From the NCBI RefSeq assembly GCF_003334305.1, contig NZ_QOWS01000006.1: a stretch of DNA of 64,000 nucleotides. One strand, written 5' to 3'. The position numbers and the translations under genes were made by a program. Positions 2,363 through 9,933 of the stretch are shown in pieces. Positions within the stretch are counted from its first letter, which is position 1, and every line of letters begins with the position of its first letter. The notes beneath the pieces were generated by a model. The model saw only the letters and a list, made by a program, of their open reading frames with translations. It did no database searches and was not told the DNA's origin. This DNA comes from Escherichia coli. Its GTDB lineage: Bacteria > Pseudomonadota > Gammaproteobacteria > Enterobacterales > Enterobacteriaceae.

Positions 2363-3598
<1,236 letters not shown>

Positions 3599-3614
3599 TT
3601 ATGTAGCGCATGAC

Positions 3615-3699
3615 TGCCGGATGCGGCGTAAACGCTTTATCCGGCCTACATTCGTGCTCCCGTAGGCCTGATAAGACGCATTAGCGTCGCATCAGGCAG
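3615..3699. repeat. REP (repetitive extragenic palindrome) pair in the caiB-caiA spacer
   Basis: GCCGGATGCGGCGTAAACGCTTTATCCGGCCTACA and GTAGGCCTGATAAGACGCATTAGCGTCGCATCAGGC in inverted orientation. Confidence 0.85.
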
Positions 3700-3708
3700 C
3701 GCACGGAC

Positions 3709-4851
3709 TTAGCGGTATTGCTTCAGCACCGCGCGACCCAGCGTCAGGATCTGCATTTCGTCAGATCCCCCGGAGACGCGGTCTACACGCAGATCACGCC
3801 AGAAGCGGCTGATGCGGTGGTTGCCCGCAATCCCGACACCGCCCAGCACCTGCATTGCGCTATCCACCACTTCAAATGCCGCATTGGCGCAGAAGTATTT
3901 GCACATCGCTGCATCGCCAGAGGTGATGGTGCCGTTGTCTGCTTTCCACGCTGCTTCATACAGCATGTTTTTCATGGAGTTTAATTTGATCGCCATGTGG
4001 GCGAATTTTTCCTGAATCAACTGGAAACGACCAATAGCCTCGCCAAACTGCACGCGCTGGTTGGCGTAGCGCGCCGCATCTTCAAAGGCGCACATCGCCG
4101 TACCGTAGTTGGTGAGGGCTACCAGGAAACGTTCATGATCGAACTCTTCTTTGACGCGGTTAAAGCCGTTACCTTCCCGACCGAACATGTCTTTCTCGTC
4201 CAGTTCCACGTCGTCAAAGGTGATTTCACAGCAGCTATCCATACGCAGACCGAGCTTTTCAAGTTTGGTCACTTTGATGCCCGGTTTGCTCATATCAACA
4301 AACCATTCGGTGTAGACAGGTTTGTCCGGAGAAGCCCCGTCGCGCGCCATCACCACGATGTACGGGGTGTAGGCGCTGCTGGTAATAAAACACTTACTAC
4401 CATTAAGATAAATCTTACCATTTCTACGGGTATAAGTCGTTTTCAGGCTACCCACGTCGGAGCCCGCGCCCGGTTCGGTAATCGCTGAGTTCCACATCTG
4501 CTTACCGGTGCCGCGGAAAGCCATAATCTTGTCGATCTGCTCTTGTGTGCCTTCGCGCAGGAAGGTGTTGAACCCGCCCGGCAACTGGTACAGCACATAG
4601 GTTGGTGCCCCCAGACGTCCCAGCTCCATCCACACGGCGGCGAGAGTAACAAACCCCGCGTCCAGACCACCGTGCTCTTCAGGGATCAGCAGACTGTCGA
4701 TACCCATATCCGCCAGTGCTTTGACAAAACGTTCCGGGTAGACGCTGTCACGGTCGCACTCGGCAAAATAGGCCTCCCAGTTTTCGCTGGCCATCAGTTC
4801 GCGGATACCGGCGACAAACAGTTCCTGCTCATCATTTAAATTAAAATCCAT
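3709..4851 (-). CDS. caiA: crotonobetainyl-CoA dehydrogenase/reductase (acyl-CoA dehydrogenase family)
   Basis: 380-aa [22 protein letters not shown]...; acyl-CoA dehydrogenase-like. Confidence 0.95.
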
Positions 4852-4881
4852 CTTTCAACCTCTTGATATTTTGGGGGTTAA

Positions 4882-6399
<1,518 letters not shown>

Positions 6400-6535
6400 T
6401 TAATTCCACTGTGAAAACGAATATTTATTTTGCGTTCCCGTTTGTTTTATTTTTGTTAACATTTAATATAATTATTATTAACCTCGTGGACGCGTTAATG
6501 GCTAACTCATAATGGGTATTCAATAAGCTGCATTC

Positions 6536-6551
6536 TGTGATTGTTATCACA
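6536..6551. promoter_or_regulatory. CRP (cAMP receptor protein) site, perfect consensus palindrome TGTGATTGTTATCACA
   Basis: Exact TGTGA-N6-TCACA seen in sequence within the cai/fix intergenic region. Confidence 0.7.
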
Positions 6552-6592
6552 TTTTTGTTTCGGGTGAATAGAGGGCGCTTTTCTCGTTAATT

Positions 6593-6607
6593 TTGATTAT
6601 TAATCAG
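6593..6607. promoter_or_regulatory. possible FNR/CRP-family half-site pair TTGATTATTAATCAG (imperfect)
   Basis: Resembles TTGAT-N4-ATCAA with a shifted or imperfect right half; cai/fix are anaerobically induced. Confidence 0.3.
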
Positions 6608-6647
6608 TTTGTTATGTTGTGTTGTGAGTAAAAAAATAGCATCTGAC

Positions 6648-6778
6648 TTTCAATATTGGTGATCCATAAAGCAATATTGAAAATTTCTTTTTGCTACGCC
6701 ATGTTTTCAATATTGGTGAGGAACTTAACAATATTGAAAGTTGGATTTATCTGCGTGTGACATTTTCAATATTGGTGA
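6648..6778. promoter_or_regulatory. CaiF-type activator sites: three copies of TTTCAATATTGGTGA, two of them paired with CAATATTGAAA after a 13-bp spacer
   Basis: Copies at 6648-6662, 6705-6719 and 6764-6778; partners at 6672-6682 and 6729-6739; the core CAATATTG is itself a palindrome; lies in the divergent caiT-fixA control region. Confidence 0.7.
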
Positions 6779-6869
6779 TTAAAGTTTTATTTCCAAATTA
6801 AAGGGCGTGATATCTGTAATTAACACCACCGATATGAACGACGTTTCCTTCATGATTTCTGGAGATGCA

Positions 6870-7640
6870 ATGAAGATTATTACTTGCTATAAGTGCGTGC
6901 CTGATGAACAGGATATTGCGGTCAATAATGCTGATGGTTCATTAGACTTCAGCAAAGCCGATGCCAAAATAAGCCAATACGATCTGAACGCTATTGAAGC
7001 GGCTTGCCAGCTAAAGCAACAGGCAGCAGAGGCGCAGGTGACGGCCTTAAGTGTGGGCGGTAAAGCCCTGACCAACGCCAAAGGGCGTAAAGATGTGCTA
7101 TCGCGCGGCCCGGATGAACTGATTGTGGTGATTGATGACCAGTTCGAGCAGGCACTGCCGCAACAAACGGCGAGCGCACTGGCTGCAGCCGCCCAGAAAG
7201 CAGGCTTTGATTTGATCCTCTGTGGCGATGGTTCTTCCGACCTTTATGCCCAGCAGGTTGGTCTGCTGGTGGGTGAAATCCTCAATATTCCGGCAGTTAA
7301 CGGCGTCAGCAAAATTATCTCCCTGACGGCAGATACCCTCACCGTTGAGCGCGAACTGGAAGATGAAACCGAAACCTTAAGCATTCCGCTGCCTGCGGTT
7401 GTTGCTGTTTCCACTGATATCAACTCCCCACAAATTCCTTCGATGAAAGCCATTCTCGGCGCGGCGAAAAAGCCAGTCCAGGTATGGTCGGCGGCGGATA
7501 TCGGTTTTAACGCCGTGGACGCCTGGTCTGAACAACAGGTTGCTGCGCCGAAACAGCGCGAACGTCAGCGCATCGTGATTGAAGGCGACGGCGAAGAACA
7601 GATCGCCGCATTTGCTGAAAATCTTCGCAAAGTCATTTAA
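6870..7640 (+). CDS. fixA: electron-transfer flavoprotein beta-subunit homologue (carnitine reduction)
   Basis: Track ORF 6807-7640 is 5'-extended; the ATG at 6870 ([14 protein letters not shown]) is preceded by GGAGAT and matches the FixA N-terminus. Confidence 0.9.
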
Positions 7641-8646: not shown

Positions 8647-9933
8647 ATGTCCGAAGATATCTTTGACGCCATCATCGTCGGTGCAGGGCTTGCCGGTTCG
8701 GTTGCCGCACTGGTGCTCGCCCGCGAAGGTGCGCAAGTGTTAGTTATCGAGCGTGGCAATTCCGCAGGTGCCAAGAACGTCACCGGCGGGCGTCTCTATG
8801 CCCACAGTCTGGAACACATTATTCCTGGTTTCGCCGACTCCGCCCCCGTAGAACGCCTGATCACCCATGAAAAACTCGCGTTTATGACGGAAAAGTCAGC
8901 GATGACTATGGACTACTGCAACGGTGACGAAACCTCGCCATCCCAGCGTTCTTACTCCGTTTTGCGCAGTAAATTTGATGCCTGGTTGATGGAGCAGGCC
9001 GAAGAAGCGGGCGCGCAGTTAATTACCGGGATTCGTGTCGATAACCTCGTACAGCGCGATGGCAAAGTCGTCGGTGTAGAAGCCGATGGCGATGTGATTG
9101 AAGCGAAAACGGTGATCCTTGCTGACGGGGTGAATTCCATCCTTGCCGAAAAGTTGGGGATGGCAAAACGCGTTAAACCGACGGATGTGGCGGTTGGCGT
9201 GAAGGAACTGATCGAGTTACCGAAGTCGGTAATCGAAGACCGTTTTCAGTTGCAGGGTAATCAGGGCGCGGCTTGTCTGTTTGCGGGATCACCCACCGAT
9301 GGCCTGATGGGCGGCGGCTTCCTTTATACCAATGAAAATACCCTGTCGCTGGGGCTGGTTTGTGGTCTGCATCATCTGCATGACGCAAAAAAATCGGTGC
9401 CGCAAATGCTGGAAGATTTCAAACAACATCCGGCCGTTGCACCGCTGATCGCGGGTGGCAAGCTGGTGGAATATTCCGCTCACGTAGTGCCGGAAGCAGG
9501 CATCAACATGCTGCCGGAGCTGGTCGGTGACGGCGTATTGATTGCCGGCGATGCCGCCGGAATGTGTATGAACCTCGGTTTTACCATTCGCGGTATGGAT
9601 CTGGCGATTGCCGCCGGGGAAGCTGCAGCAAAAACCGTGCTTTCAGCGATGAAAAGCGACGATTTCAGTAAGCAAAAACTGGCGGAATATCGTCAGCATC
9701 TTGAGAGTGGCCCGCTGCGCGATATGCGCATGTACCAGAAACTACCGGCGTTCCTTGATAACCCACGCATGTTCAGCGGCTACCCGGAGCTGGCGGTGGG
9801 CGTGGCGCGTGACCTGTTCACCATTGACGGCAGTGCGCCAGAACTGATGCGCAAGAAAATCCTCCGCCACGGTAAGAAAGTGGGCTTCATCAATCTAATC
9901 AAGGATGGCATGAAAGGAGTGACCGTTTTATGA
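8647..9933 (+). CDS. fixC: FAD-dependent oxidoreductase (ETF-quinone oxidoreductase-like)
   Basis: 428-aa ORF with N-terminal dinucleotide-binding motif DAIIVGAGLAGS. Confidence 0.93.
   Translation: MSEDIFDAIIVGAGLAGSVAALVLAREGAQVLVIERGNSAGAKNVTGGRLYAHSLEHIIPGFADSAPVERLITHEKLAFMTEKSAMTMDYCNGDETSPSQRSYSVLRSKFDAWLMEQAEEAGAQLITGIRVDNLVQRDGKVVGVEADGDVIEAKTVILADGVNSILAEKLGMAKRVKPTDVAVGVKELIELPKSVIEDRFQLQGNQGAACLFAGSPTDGLMGGGFLYTNENTLSLGLVCGLHHLHDAKKSVPQMLEDFKQHPAVAPLIAGGKLVEYSAHVVPEAGINMLPELVGDGVLIAGDAAGMCMNLGFTIRGMDLAIAAGEAAAKTVLSAMKSDDFSKQKLAEYRQHLESGPLRDMRMYQKLPAFLDNPRMFSGYPELAVGVARDLFTIDGSAPELMRKKILRHGKKVGFINLIKDGMKGVTVL

What the first reader, a model, noticed from the sequence alone, without database searches (positions are those of the whole stretch)
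6648..6778. Two CaiF-type paired half-sites with exact 13-bp spacing, plus an unpaired third copy next to fixA
Seen in sequence: TTTCAATATTGGTGA occurs three times (6648-6662, 6705-6719, 6764-6778). The first two are each followed after exactly 13 bp by CAATATTGAAA, giving two inverted-repeat sites. Established: CaiF activates the divergent cai and fix operons through inverted repeats with 13-bp spacing in this region. The third copy has no partner within 30 bp and lies about 90 bp upstream of the fixA ATG; whether it is a functional half-site or a decayed site is an open inference.
Basis: partly seen in the sequence, partly recalled or inferred. Interest (0 to 1): 0.45.

Follow-up and report, generated by a model that had tools for sequence, protein, structure and literature searches.

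The report
Conserved third CaiF box in fix promoter
Besides the two known paired binding sites for the carnitine regulator CaiF between the E. coli cai and fix operons, a third, unpaired copy of the same motif sits inside the fix core promoter. It is conserved in 20 genera, so it is almost certainly a working control element and not a decayed leftover.

Summary
TTTCAATATTGGTGA occurs three times exactly (6648, 6705, 6764). The first two have CAATATTGAAA partners 13 bp after the 11-nt arm (9 bp after the 15-mer). These are the published CaiF sites F1 and F2 of the E. coli caiT-fixA intergenic region.

The open question was the third copy, called P here. P has no partner. In caiT-fixA regions from 80 genomes, the 14-mer TTCAATATTGGTGA plus a downstream GT(T/A)TTATTT block is the best-conserved stretch found, 0.95 against about 0.54 in the flanks across 20 genera. 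It lies about 106 bp upstream of the fixA ATG wherever paired sites exist. The number of paired sites varies from 0 to 3, while P is kept in all but one genome. Edwardsiella and Hafnia encode CaiF orthologues and have P alone; their relatives Leminorella, Limnobaculum and one Serratia also have P alone.

In E. coli, P fills the 17-bp spacer of the predicted fixA promoter (GTGACA-17-TAAAGT, start about 6792), at -28 to -14.

Best reading: P is a promoter-embedded CaiF operator, placed like the target of GrlA (same Pfam family) in the LEE1 P1 spacer. CaiF binding at P and the direction of its effect are inferred. F1 and F2 are already known; P looks like an unannotated new member.

The parts
6648..6682 (+). 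F1: paired CaiF site, TTTCAATATTG-N13-CAATATTGAAA. Its centre is at about -127 of the fix start.
   Evidence: pair I7. The sequence equals the published F-site formula. It is present only in the Escherichia/Citrobacter/Salmonella-type genera, Proteus and Providencia.
6705..6739 (+). F2: paired CaiF site. Its centre, 6722, is at about -70 of the fix start.
   Evidence: pair I3. The arm-to-arm offset of 24 nt is invariant in every genus that has the pair.
6764..6778 (+). P: the third, unpaired copy TTTCAATATTGGTGA. It contains the palindrome CAATATTG at 6767-6774.
   Evidence: There is no partner. Mean column conservation is 0.95 across 20 genera. It is invariant in a 94%-identical E. coli strain. 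The 70-mer around it is never below 95% identical in the 5391 E. coli genomes that matched.
6757..6762 (+). Predicted -35 hexamer GTGACA of the fixA promoter.
   Evidence: Consensus scan, 9 of 12 matches with a 17-bp spacer. Conserved only in the Escherichia/Citrobacter/Salmonella clade and partly in the distant genera.
6780..6785 (+). Predicted -10 hexamer TAAAGT of the fixA promoter. The implied start is about 6792.
   Evidence: A start at 6792 puts the second-best CRP core match of the region at -69.5. That is the position a RegulonDB paper gives for a CRP site at fixAp.
6784..6792 (+). Conserved block GTTTTATTT just downstream of P. In distant genera it reads GTATTATTT and contains TATTAT, so it may be the ancestral -10.
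   Evidence: Mean column conservation 0.89 across 20 genera.
6715..6730 (+). CRP-like core GGTGAGGAACTTAACA inside the F2 spacer. It re-uses the GGTGA tail of the repeat.
   Evidence: 8 of 10 matches to TGTGA-N6-TCACA, centre 6722.5. One search places a CRP site at -69.5 of fixAp.
6658..6673 (+). Weaker CRP-like core GGTGATCCATAAAGCA inside the F1 spacer.
   Evidence: 6 of 10 matches, centre 6665.5, which is -126.5. says fixAp has a pair of CRP sites placed like those of acsP2.
6536..6551 (.). Perfect CRP core TGTGATTGTTATCACA, at -41.5 of the inferred cai start (about 6502).
   Evidence: 10 of 10 matches. It is conserved, together with a CATTAT -10 at 6509-6514 on the - strand, across genera.
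4882..6396 (-). caiT, the L-carnitine/gamma-butyrobetaine antiporter and first gene of the cai operon.
   Evidence: RefSeq annotation.
6870..7640 (+). fixA, the first gene of fixABCX.
   Evidence: RefSeq annotation.

Best explanation
The window holds the E. coli cai-fix control region. Copies 1 and 2 with their partners are the known CaiF sites F1 and F2.

The third copy, P, is a functional, selectively maintained CaiF-type operator. It is a single palindromic CAATATTG core with the same TT and GGTGA flanks as the left arms of F1 and F2, and it is built into the fixA core promoter. In E. coli it fills the 17-bp spacer between GTGACA and TAAAGT, at -28 to -14.

The most likely mechanism is that CaiF, loaded with its crotonobetainyl-CoA signal, occupies P next to RNA polymerase and activates fix from within the promoter. 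This is the way its family relative GrlA acts in the spacer of LEE1 P1. F2 and F1, each with a CRP site in its 13-bp gap, would be upstream auxiliary sites that raise CaiF occupancy and also serve the divergent cai promoter.

Shown here: the sequence, its conservation, its position relative to fixA and to consensus promoter elements, and its co-occurrence with caiF. Inferred: that CaiF binds P, and that binding there activates and does not limit.
For: 1. P matches the F left arms at 15 of 15 positions.

2. In 43 of 69 caiT-fixA regions P lies 103-109 bp upstream of the fixA ATG with at most 2 mismatches. These regions cover the 14 genera sampled that have paired sites.

3. Across 20 genera TTCAATATTGGTGA has a mean column conservation of 0.95, against 0.53-0.55 in the flanks. 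It is followed by a conserved GT(T/A)TTATTT block at 0.89. FixA protein identity to these genera falls to 61-74%.

4. The number of paired sites varies: 0 (Leminorella, Limnobaculum, Edwardsiella, Hafnia and a Serratia), 1 (seven loci, including Pluralibacter, Yokenella, Atlantibacter and Trabulsiella), 2 (the E. coli clade) and 3 (Proteus). P is kept throughout.

5. Edwardsiella and Hafnia, which have P only, encode CaiF orthologues at 52-55% identity beside the fix operon. Four of the six residues reported as critical (Y11, N43, Y47, R75) are invariant.

6. The consensus scan gives GTGACA-17-TAAAGT with P as the spacer. The implied start, 6792, agrees with the CRP position of -69.5.

7. CaiF belongs to Pfam CaiF_GrlA, and GrlA is reported to act in the LEE1 P1 spacer.

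8. Within E. coli the 70-mer around P is exact in 4603 of 5391 genomes and never below 95%. A control 70-mer 150 bp upstream is far more variable.
Against: The held papers cite only two CaiF sites, F1 and F2. The primary footprinting papers could not be read, so a negative footprint at P may exist.

The spacer geometry rests on a consensus match and an inferred start. It holds only for the Escherichia/Citrobacter/Salmonella clade. No consensus promoter is called around P in Proteus, Providencia, Edwardsiella or Hafnia. There the conserved TTTTAT/TATTAT would place P over the -35 side instead.

The fix spacer is 17 bp, which is optimal, and not over-long as at MerR-type promoters or LEE1 P1, which has 18 bp. 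The LEE1 spacer shows no real sequence similarity to P (by eye).

One genome, Entomohabitans (L036), has lost the P core while keeping a paired site and fixA.

The invariant GGTGA tail is not explained by the published 11-nt CaiF arm.
Confidence: 0.6

Rival explanations
1. P is a core-promoter element conserved for RNA polymerase or for a factor other than CaiF. Its identity to the F arms would then reflect common descent by duplication, not binding of the same protein.
For: P sits within the predicted core promoter. It is contiguous with a conserved -10-like block. The GGTGA tail is not part of the published CaiF arm. The F1 and F2 units are clear duplicates of each other, 73% identical over 51 nt. 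Budvicia shows a 27-bp tandem duplication of the P unit.
Against: Promoter spacers are not normally sequence-constrained, yet 14 consecutive positions are near-invariant across 20 genera. Those positions are exactly the ones shared with sites known to bind CaiF. CaiF's reported critical residues are conserved in genomes that have P alone. As a CRP site P scores only 6 of 10, and its right half lacks both C positions.
Confidence: 0.17
2. P is a CaiF operator that works negatively. At high CaiF levels, occupancy of the spacer blocks RNA polymerase and caps fix expression, while activation comes only from F1 and F2.
For: A protein bound at -28 to -14 commonly represses (general knowledge). The spacer is already the optimal 17 bp, and the hexamers match 9 of 12. 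No spacer remodelling therefore seems needed.
Against: In five genera P is the only CaiF-type box in the region. In the two of these that were checked, CaiF is present. A purely negative site would make CaiF a repressor there, although it is known only as an activator. The family relative GrlA activates from a spacer position.
Confidence: 0.15
3. P is a decaying remnant of a third paired site, or of a tandem duplication, and has no present function.
For: It has no partner. The copies are spaced 57 and 59 bp apart, as in a tandem array. One genome has lost the core (L036).
Against: It is conserved at 0.95 per column across 20 genera, at a fixed distance from fixA in the 14 genera with paired sites. 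It is retained where no paired site exists. The position where a partner would lie is occupied by a different block that is itself conserved. P is near-invariant across the 5391 E. coli genomes that matched.
Confidence: 0.03

Closest known systems
CaiF sites F1 and F2 of the E. coli cai-fix intergenic region (Buchet et al. 1999, as cited in PMC12083890 and PMC3680233)
   Same: Copies 1 and 2 are these sites. P shares the full 11-nt arm and four further bases with their left arms. It lies in the same regulatory region, 59 bp downstream of the F2 left arm.
   Different: P has no inverted partner at 13 bp or anywhere nearby. It lies inside the core promoter and not at -70 or -127. It is phylogenetically more widespread than either paired site. 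None of the accessible papers lists it as a CaiF site.
GrlA target in the spacer of the LEE1 P1 promoter of EHEC/EPEC (Islam et al. 2011, as cited in PMC4730234 and PMC4856446)
   Same: The regulator is in the same Pfam family, PF07180 CaiF_GrlA. The target lies between the -35 and -10 hexamers of the activated promoter.
   Different: LEE1 P1 has an 18-bp spacer with no dyad. The fix spacer is 17 bp and carries a perfect 8-bp palindrome. The two spacers are not similar in sequence. GrlA has no known upstream auxiliary sites like F1 and F2.
MerR-family operators (dyad in an over-long promoter spacer)
   Same: [quoted passage not shown]
   Different: CaiF is not a MerR-family protein. The spacer is 17 bp and not 19-20 bp, so the untwisting logic of MerR is not obviously needed.
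Class I CRP-dependent promoters with tandem CRP sites (acsP2 type, -69.5 and about -122.5)
   Same: According to RegulonDB v8, fixAp has a CRP pair at similar positions. These coincide with the GGTGA-N6-xxxCA cores inside F2 and F1.
   Different: This explains the GGTGA tail in F1 and F2 only. The equivalent sequence at P is a poor CRP core (6 of 10) and would be centred at -10.5.

Membership tests
CaiF F-type operator (TTTCAATATTG-N13-CAATATTGAAA) | 11-nt arm TTTCAATATTG | tested here: met
   Exact in all three copies.
CaiF F-type operator (TTTCAATATTG-N13-CAATATTGAAA) | Inverted partner arm exactly 13 bp away | tested here: not met
   Met for copies 1 and 2 (pairs I7 and I3). Not met for P: 7 of 11 mismatches at the expected position, and the best nearby 11-mer matches 7 of 11. 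P is therefore not filed as an F-type paired site.
CaiF F-type operator (TTTCAATATTG-N13-CAATATTGAAA) | Protected by purified CaiF in footprinting or gel shift | not testable with these tools
   Secondary sources report this for F1 and F2 only. The primary papers are not held.
CaiF F-type operator (TTTCAATATTG-N13-CAATATTGAAA) | Occurs in the cai-fix control region of genomes that encode CaiF | tested here: met
   Named CaiF proteins were found for Salmonella, Citrobacter, Providencia, Atlantibacter, Trabulsiella, Intestinirhabdus and others, and for Edwardsiella and Hafnia. A review reports caiF in Proteus. All of these carry P. No box was found in Shewanella or Ferrimonas, but their CaiF status was not checked.
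Spacer-binding activator operator (GrlA/LEE1 P1 type, MerR-like) | Operator lies between the -35 and -10 hexamers | tested here: inconclusive
   Met for the consensus-predicted E. coli promoter GTGACA-17-TAAAGT, whose start agrees with the CRP position of -69.5. There is no experimental start site in hand, and no consensus promoter is called in four other genera.
Spacer-binding activator operator (GrlA/LEE1 P1 type, MerR-like) | Over-long spacer (18 bp at LEE1 P1, 19-20 bp for MerR family) | tested here: not met
   The fix spacer is 17 bp. LEE1 P1 has 18 bp.
Spacer-binding activator operator (GrlA/LEE1 P1 type, MerR-like) | Regulator is of the GrlA family | tested here: met
   CaiF hits PF07180 CaiF_GrlA with E = 2e-6. 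Homologues carry the same precomputed domain.
CRP binding site | TGTGA-N6-TCACA core with both G/C-containing halves | tested here: not met
   P: GGTGA-N6-TTTTA, 6 of 10, with neither C of the right half. F2: 8 of 10. The cai-proximal site: 10 of 10.
Sigma-70 promoter | -35 and -10 hexamers with 16-18 bp spacing | tested here: met
   9 of 12 matches with a 17-bp spacer. This is a consensus match only, and the number of such matches in the region is no higher than in shuffles.

The most novel reading that the evidence does not exclude
The unpaired box in the fix promoter spacer is the primary and ancestral CaiF operator. CaiF, like GrlA, would be a spacer-binding activator, making this a family-wide mechanism for PF07180 proteins. 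The textbook paired sites F1 and F2 would be lineage-specific auxiliary sites. They would have arisen by tandem duplication, with 0 to 3 copies depending on genus, and would have been co-opted with CRP to reach the divergent cai promoter.
Probability: 0.35. Interest if true: 0.55.

Novelty: new member of a known kind. Interest (0 to 1): 0.42.

Why it matters
The cai-fix region is a textbook-level example of a divergent promoter pair co-activated by CRP and a specific regulator. It is also the chassis of current L-carnitine biosensors.

If the promoter-embedded box is the real point of CaiF action, the accepted two-site model is incomplete. Sensor and promoter engineering should then treat -28 to -14 of the fix promoter as an operator. 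CaiF and the virulence regulator GrlA would also share a spacer-binding activation mode, giving a mechanistic handle on a small, poorly understood regulator family.

The practical stakes are modest. This is one regulon in enteric bacteria.

Tried and rejected
1. The primary papers (Buchet 1998, PMC107209; Buchet 1999) are not held. Five literature searches found no mention of a third CaiF site.

2. CRP as the explanation for P's GGTGA tail: rejected, 6 of 10 matches with no C in the right half.

3. A CaiF-like box in the cai core promoter: E. coli has ATTCAATAAGC at 6518-6528, but it is not conserved in other genera. The conserved part there is GGGTATTCA plus the -10. Rejected as chance.

4. 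A P-like box upstream of caiF (autoregulation): none within 3 mismatches in E. coli. A 2-mismatch hit near the Edwardsiella caiF is not conserved in Hafnia.

5. Sequence similarity between P and the GrlA-responsive LEE1 P1 spacer: the spacer was retrieved and compared. Both are AT-rich, with no meaningful match.

6. An RNA element: no Rfam match of note in 6200-7100. P lies upstream of both inferred transcript starts.

7. caiF within the 3-kb flanks of the 80 loci: none found. This was resolved for Edwardsiella and Hafnia with 10-kb flanks.

8. Helical phasing between P and the F sites: the spacing from the F2 left arm to P is conserved at 59-61 bp, but F1-F2 spacing varies from 55 to 59 bp. 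No consistent phase argument could be made.

Full report
**What is in the sequence**

The window stretch 6397-6869 is the 473-bp region between caiT (4882-6396, minus strand) and fixA (ATG at 6870, plus strand). It is 100% identical to some E. coli chromosomes and matches 5392 of 5426 complete E. coli genomes. K-12 MG1655 differs by a few substitutions and two 1-bp deletions, both upstream of the repeats.

The 15-mer TTTCAATATTGGTGA occurs exactly three times, at 6648, 6705 and 6764. The repeat finder extends copies 1 and 3 to 16 nt. Copies 1 and 2 have perfect inverted partners CAATATTGAAA at 6672-6682 and 6729-6739. The gap is 13 bp from the 11-nt arm, and so 9 bp from the end of the 15-mer.

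The third copy has no partner. Seven of 11 bases mismatch at the expected position, and nothing in the next 65 bp matches better than 7 of 11.

Five of its eight occurrences in the 64-kb window lie within 124 bp here, against 1.25 expected for the whole window. An 'unpaired half-site' may therefore be a complete dyad on its own.

**What is already known**

[quoted passage not shown] Each site is a pair of 11-bp inverted repeats separated by 13 bp, TTTCAATATTG-N13-CAATATTGAAA. They cite Eichler 1996 and Buchet 1999. Copies 1 and 2 are those sites.

The primary papers could not be read. None of the accessible papers mentions a third site.

**Comparative test of the third copy (P)**

I fetched 80 loci encoding CaiT relatives, one genome per species. 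I located caiT and fixA in each and extracted 69 caiT-fixA intergenic regions in the window's orientation.

- P is found with at most 2 mismatches, 103-109 bp upstream of the fixA ATG, in 43 of them. The list covers every Escherichia, Citrobacter, Salmonella, Pseudocitrobacter, Phytobacter, Intestinirhabdus, Pluralibacter, Yokenella, Atlantibacter, Trabulsiella and Proteus region, all but one Providencia region, and two unnamed Enterobacteriaceae. Providencia heimbachae (L038) has the exact box 139 bp upstream of the ATG, ahead of a longer leader.
- The number of paired sites varies. There is one pair in seven loci, two in the E. coli clade and three in Proteus, always with the 24-nt arm offset and 55-59 bp between units.
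- P is always 59-61 bp downstream of the last left arm.
- In six more distant genera (Leminorella, Limnobaculum, Edwardsiella, Hafnia, Budvicia and a Serratia) P lies 264-312 bp upstream of the fixA ATG, ahead of a longer leader. Five of them have one unpaired box. Budvicia has two, through a 27-bp tandem duplication.
- In five of these six genera no paired site was seen anywhere in the region. Budvicia was not examined for this.

An alignment of one sequence per genus (20 genera), anchored on P, gave these values for the mean frequency of the commonest base:

| Stretch | Mean top-base frequency |
|---|---|
| P 15-mer (the 14 bases TTCAATATTGGTGA are each at least 85%) | 0.95 |
| GT(T/A)TTATTT block, starting 6 nt after P | 0.89 |
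| 30 nt upstream of P | 0.53 |
| Sequence downstream of the conserved block | 0.55 |

FixA protein identity to these genera falls to 61-74%, so unconstrained non-coding DNA should be randomised at this distance.

Within E. coli, the 70-mer centred on P is exact in 4603 of 5391 genomes and never below 95%. A control 70-mer 150 bp upstream is detectable in only 3104 genomes, 1087 of them at 90-95%. That variable zone is visible in the three-strain alignment.

The one exception is Entomohabitans (L036), where the P core has decayed while GGTGA and the T-rich block remain.

**Does P track CaiF?**

CaiF proteins with source names were found for Salmonella, Citrobacter, Trabulsiella, Intestinirhabdus, Cedecea, Providencia, Atlantibacter and others. 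A review reports caiF in Proteus.

For the distant group I retrieved 10-kb flanks. Edwardsiella and Hafnia both encode a PF07180 protein downstream of the fix operon. It is 52-55% identical to E. coli CaiF over its whole length. Residues Y11, N43, Y47 and R75 are invariant. These are four of the six residues whose alanine replacement impaired the CaiF biosensor.

So a CaiF orthologue with conserved critical residues coexists with a control region whose only CaiF-type box is the unpaired one. Shewanella and Ferrimonas regions have no box; their CaiF status was not checked.

**Where P sits relative to the promoter**

A consensus scan of the intergenic region finds one plus-strand sigma-70-like promoter, GTGACA (6757-6762), 17 bp, TAAAGT (6780-6785). 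The number of such matches in the region is no higher than in shuffles, so this alone is weak. It implies a start near 6792.

Independent support comes from the CRP sites. Ranking all 16-mers of the region against TGTGA-N6-TCACA gave:

| Start | Matches | Centre | Position |
|---|---|---|---|
| 6536 | 10 of 10 | 6543.5 | -41.5 of a cai start at 6502 |
| 6715 (inside F2) | 8 of 10 | 6722.5 | -69.5 of a fix start at 6792 |
| 6658 (inside F1) | 6 of 10 | 6665.5 | -126.5 of a fix start at 6792 |

The cai start at 6502 fits a conserved CATTAT -10. The RegulonDB v8 paper states that fixAp has a CRP pair positioned like that of acsP2, and in the same passage names -69.5 as the proximal CRP position. 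From my own memory of the Buchet abstracts, not verified here, the figures are -41.5 (cai), -69.5 and -126.5 (fix), with the two start sites 289 bp apart. The geometry above reproduces these once the two K-12 deletions are allowed for.

With the start at 6792, P occupies -28 to -14. That is the whole 17-bp spacer except one base at each end.

This geometry is clade-specific. GTGACA and TA..GT are conserved only in the Escherichia/Citrobacter/Salmonella group. No consensus promoter is called around P in Proteus, Providencia, Edwardsiella or Hafnia. In those genera the conserved hexamer 6 nt after P (TTTTAT, TTTAAT, or TATTAT in the distant group) is the likelier -10. That would shift P about 5 bp towards the -35 side. 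Under either alignment the palindrome lies between the -35 and -10 positions.

**Why GGTGA?**

In F2 and F1 the GGTGA tail forms the left half of the CRP-like cores, which explains its presence there. At P the equivalent core, GGTGA-N6-TTTTA, scores 6 of 10, lacks both C positions and would be centred at -10.5. CRP therefore does not explain the invariance of GGTGA at P.

Either the CaiF recognition unit is longer than the published 11 nt on this side, or these bases are constrained by RNA polymerase. This remains unexplained.

**Mechanism**

CaiF belongs to Pfam CaiF_GrlA. GrlA, the LEE-encoded activator of ler, is described as acting in a MerR-like way on the spacer of LEE1 P1. I retrieved that promoter (TTGACA, 18 bp, TACACA). 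It is not similar in sequence to P, it has no dyad, and its spacer is one base longer. The parallel is therefore positional and by family, not by sequence.

The best-supported reading is that P is a promoter-embedded CaiF operator through which CaiF acts directly on RNA polymerase at fix, with F2 and F1 plus CRP as upstream auxiliaries shared with cai.

That CaiF binds P is an inference from three things: sequence identity with proven sites, conservation, and co-occurrence with CaiF. That it activates is a weaker inference, from P-only genera and from the GrlA precedent.

The rivals are:
- a CaiF-independent promoter element;
- a negative, occupancy-limiting CaiF operator;
- a functionless relic, which the conservation data effectively exclude.

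**Verdict**

F1 and F2 are already known. The third copy is real, is not a decayed site, and is apparently not annotated as a CaiF site in the accessible literature. I rate it a new member of a known kind, with a moderately interesting mechanistic implication that simple experiments could settle.

Noticed in passing
window 6806-6835 (fix leader, about +15 to +44); same relative position in L021, L023, L024, L026-L033, L064; L020/L042/L044/L048/L049/L052 about 38-57 nt after P: There is a second conserved block downstream of P, in the fix leader. The pattern TG.TA..T.T is at least 85% conserved across 20 genera. Distant genera share an invariant GAATCATGGTATTTCTATTG, and Proteus-type genera have TGTTAATTCTATATTACATTGCC. 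It could be a binding site for another regulator (NarL-heptamer-like TACTYAT or ArcA-box-like in some genera) or a leader element. It was not identified.
   Followed up: partly
L084 about 9735-9790 (minus strand), and the aligned block in L020, L042, L044, L048, L049, L052: In the distant genera, the cai-proximal conserved block reads TTATAATGA-N15-AATAATCCGTGATCTTAATCAAA. On the cai strand this gives TTGATTAAGATCAC, an FNR-like box, where E. coli has the perfect CRP core. The cai promoter in these genera seems to have swapped its global regulator and has no CaiF box nearby.
   Followed up: no
L047 (Budvicia aquatica), 339 and 312 nt upstream of the fixA ATG: The P unit is tandemly duplicated with a 27-bp period: TTTCAATATTGGTGAtgaaGGTATTgt followed by TTTCAATATTGGTGAtagaGGTATTATTTT. 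This shows that the box-plus-hexamer unit does duplicate in nature.
   Followed up: no
window 6520-6640: A hypervariable stretch lies between the cai CRP site and F1 within E. coli. It holds nearly all differences between this window, K-12 and a 94%-identical strain, including two 1-bp indels. A 70-mer from it is too diverged for megablast in about 2300 genomes. The F1-P-leader segment next to it is almost invariant.
   Followed up: partly
L084/L085 (Edwardsiella) and L086/L087 (Hafnia), 2590-5860: Gene order differs from E. coli. caiF lies downstream of fixX, together with an MFS transporter and a BD-FAE/alpha-beta hydrolase gene. No caiE-like gene is apparent after caiD. Edwardsiella has a second AMP-binding ligase gene there.
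   Followed up: no
L036 (Entomohabitans teleogrylli), about 110-130 nt upstream of the fixA ATG: This is the only genome with a paired site in which the P core is lost (TTCAGCGACGTCGGGTGAGTTTTTATTTAT). GGTGA and the T-rich block remain, and fixA is intact. It is a natural 'P mutant' and worth testing for fix regulation.
   Followed up: no
window 6807-6869: The longest fixA reading frame starts at GTG 6807, giving 277 aa. RefSeq and all homologues start at ATG 6870. The 63-nt in-frame extension is leader, not coding.
   Followed up: yes
window 16126, 58453, 60461: There are three further CAATATTG palindromes elsewhere in the window. None has the TT or GGTGA flanks within 3 mismatches, so they are probably chance.
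   Followed up: partly
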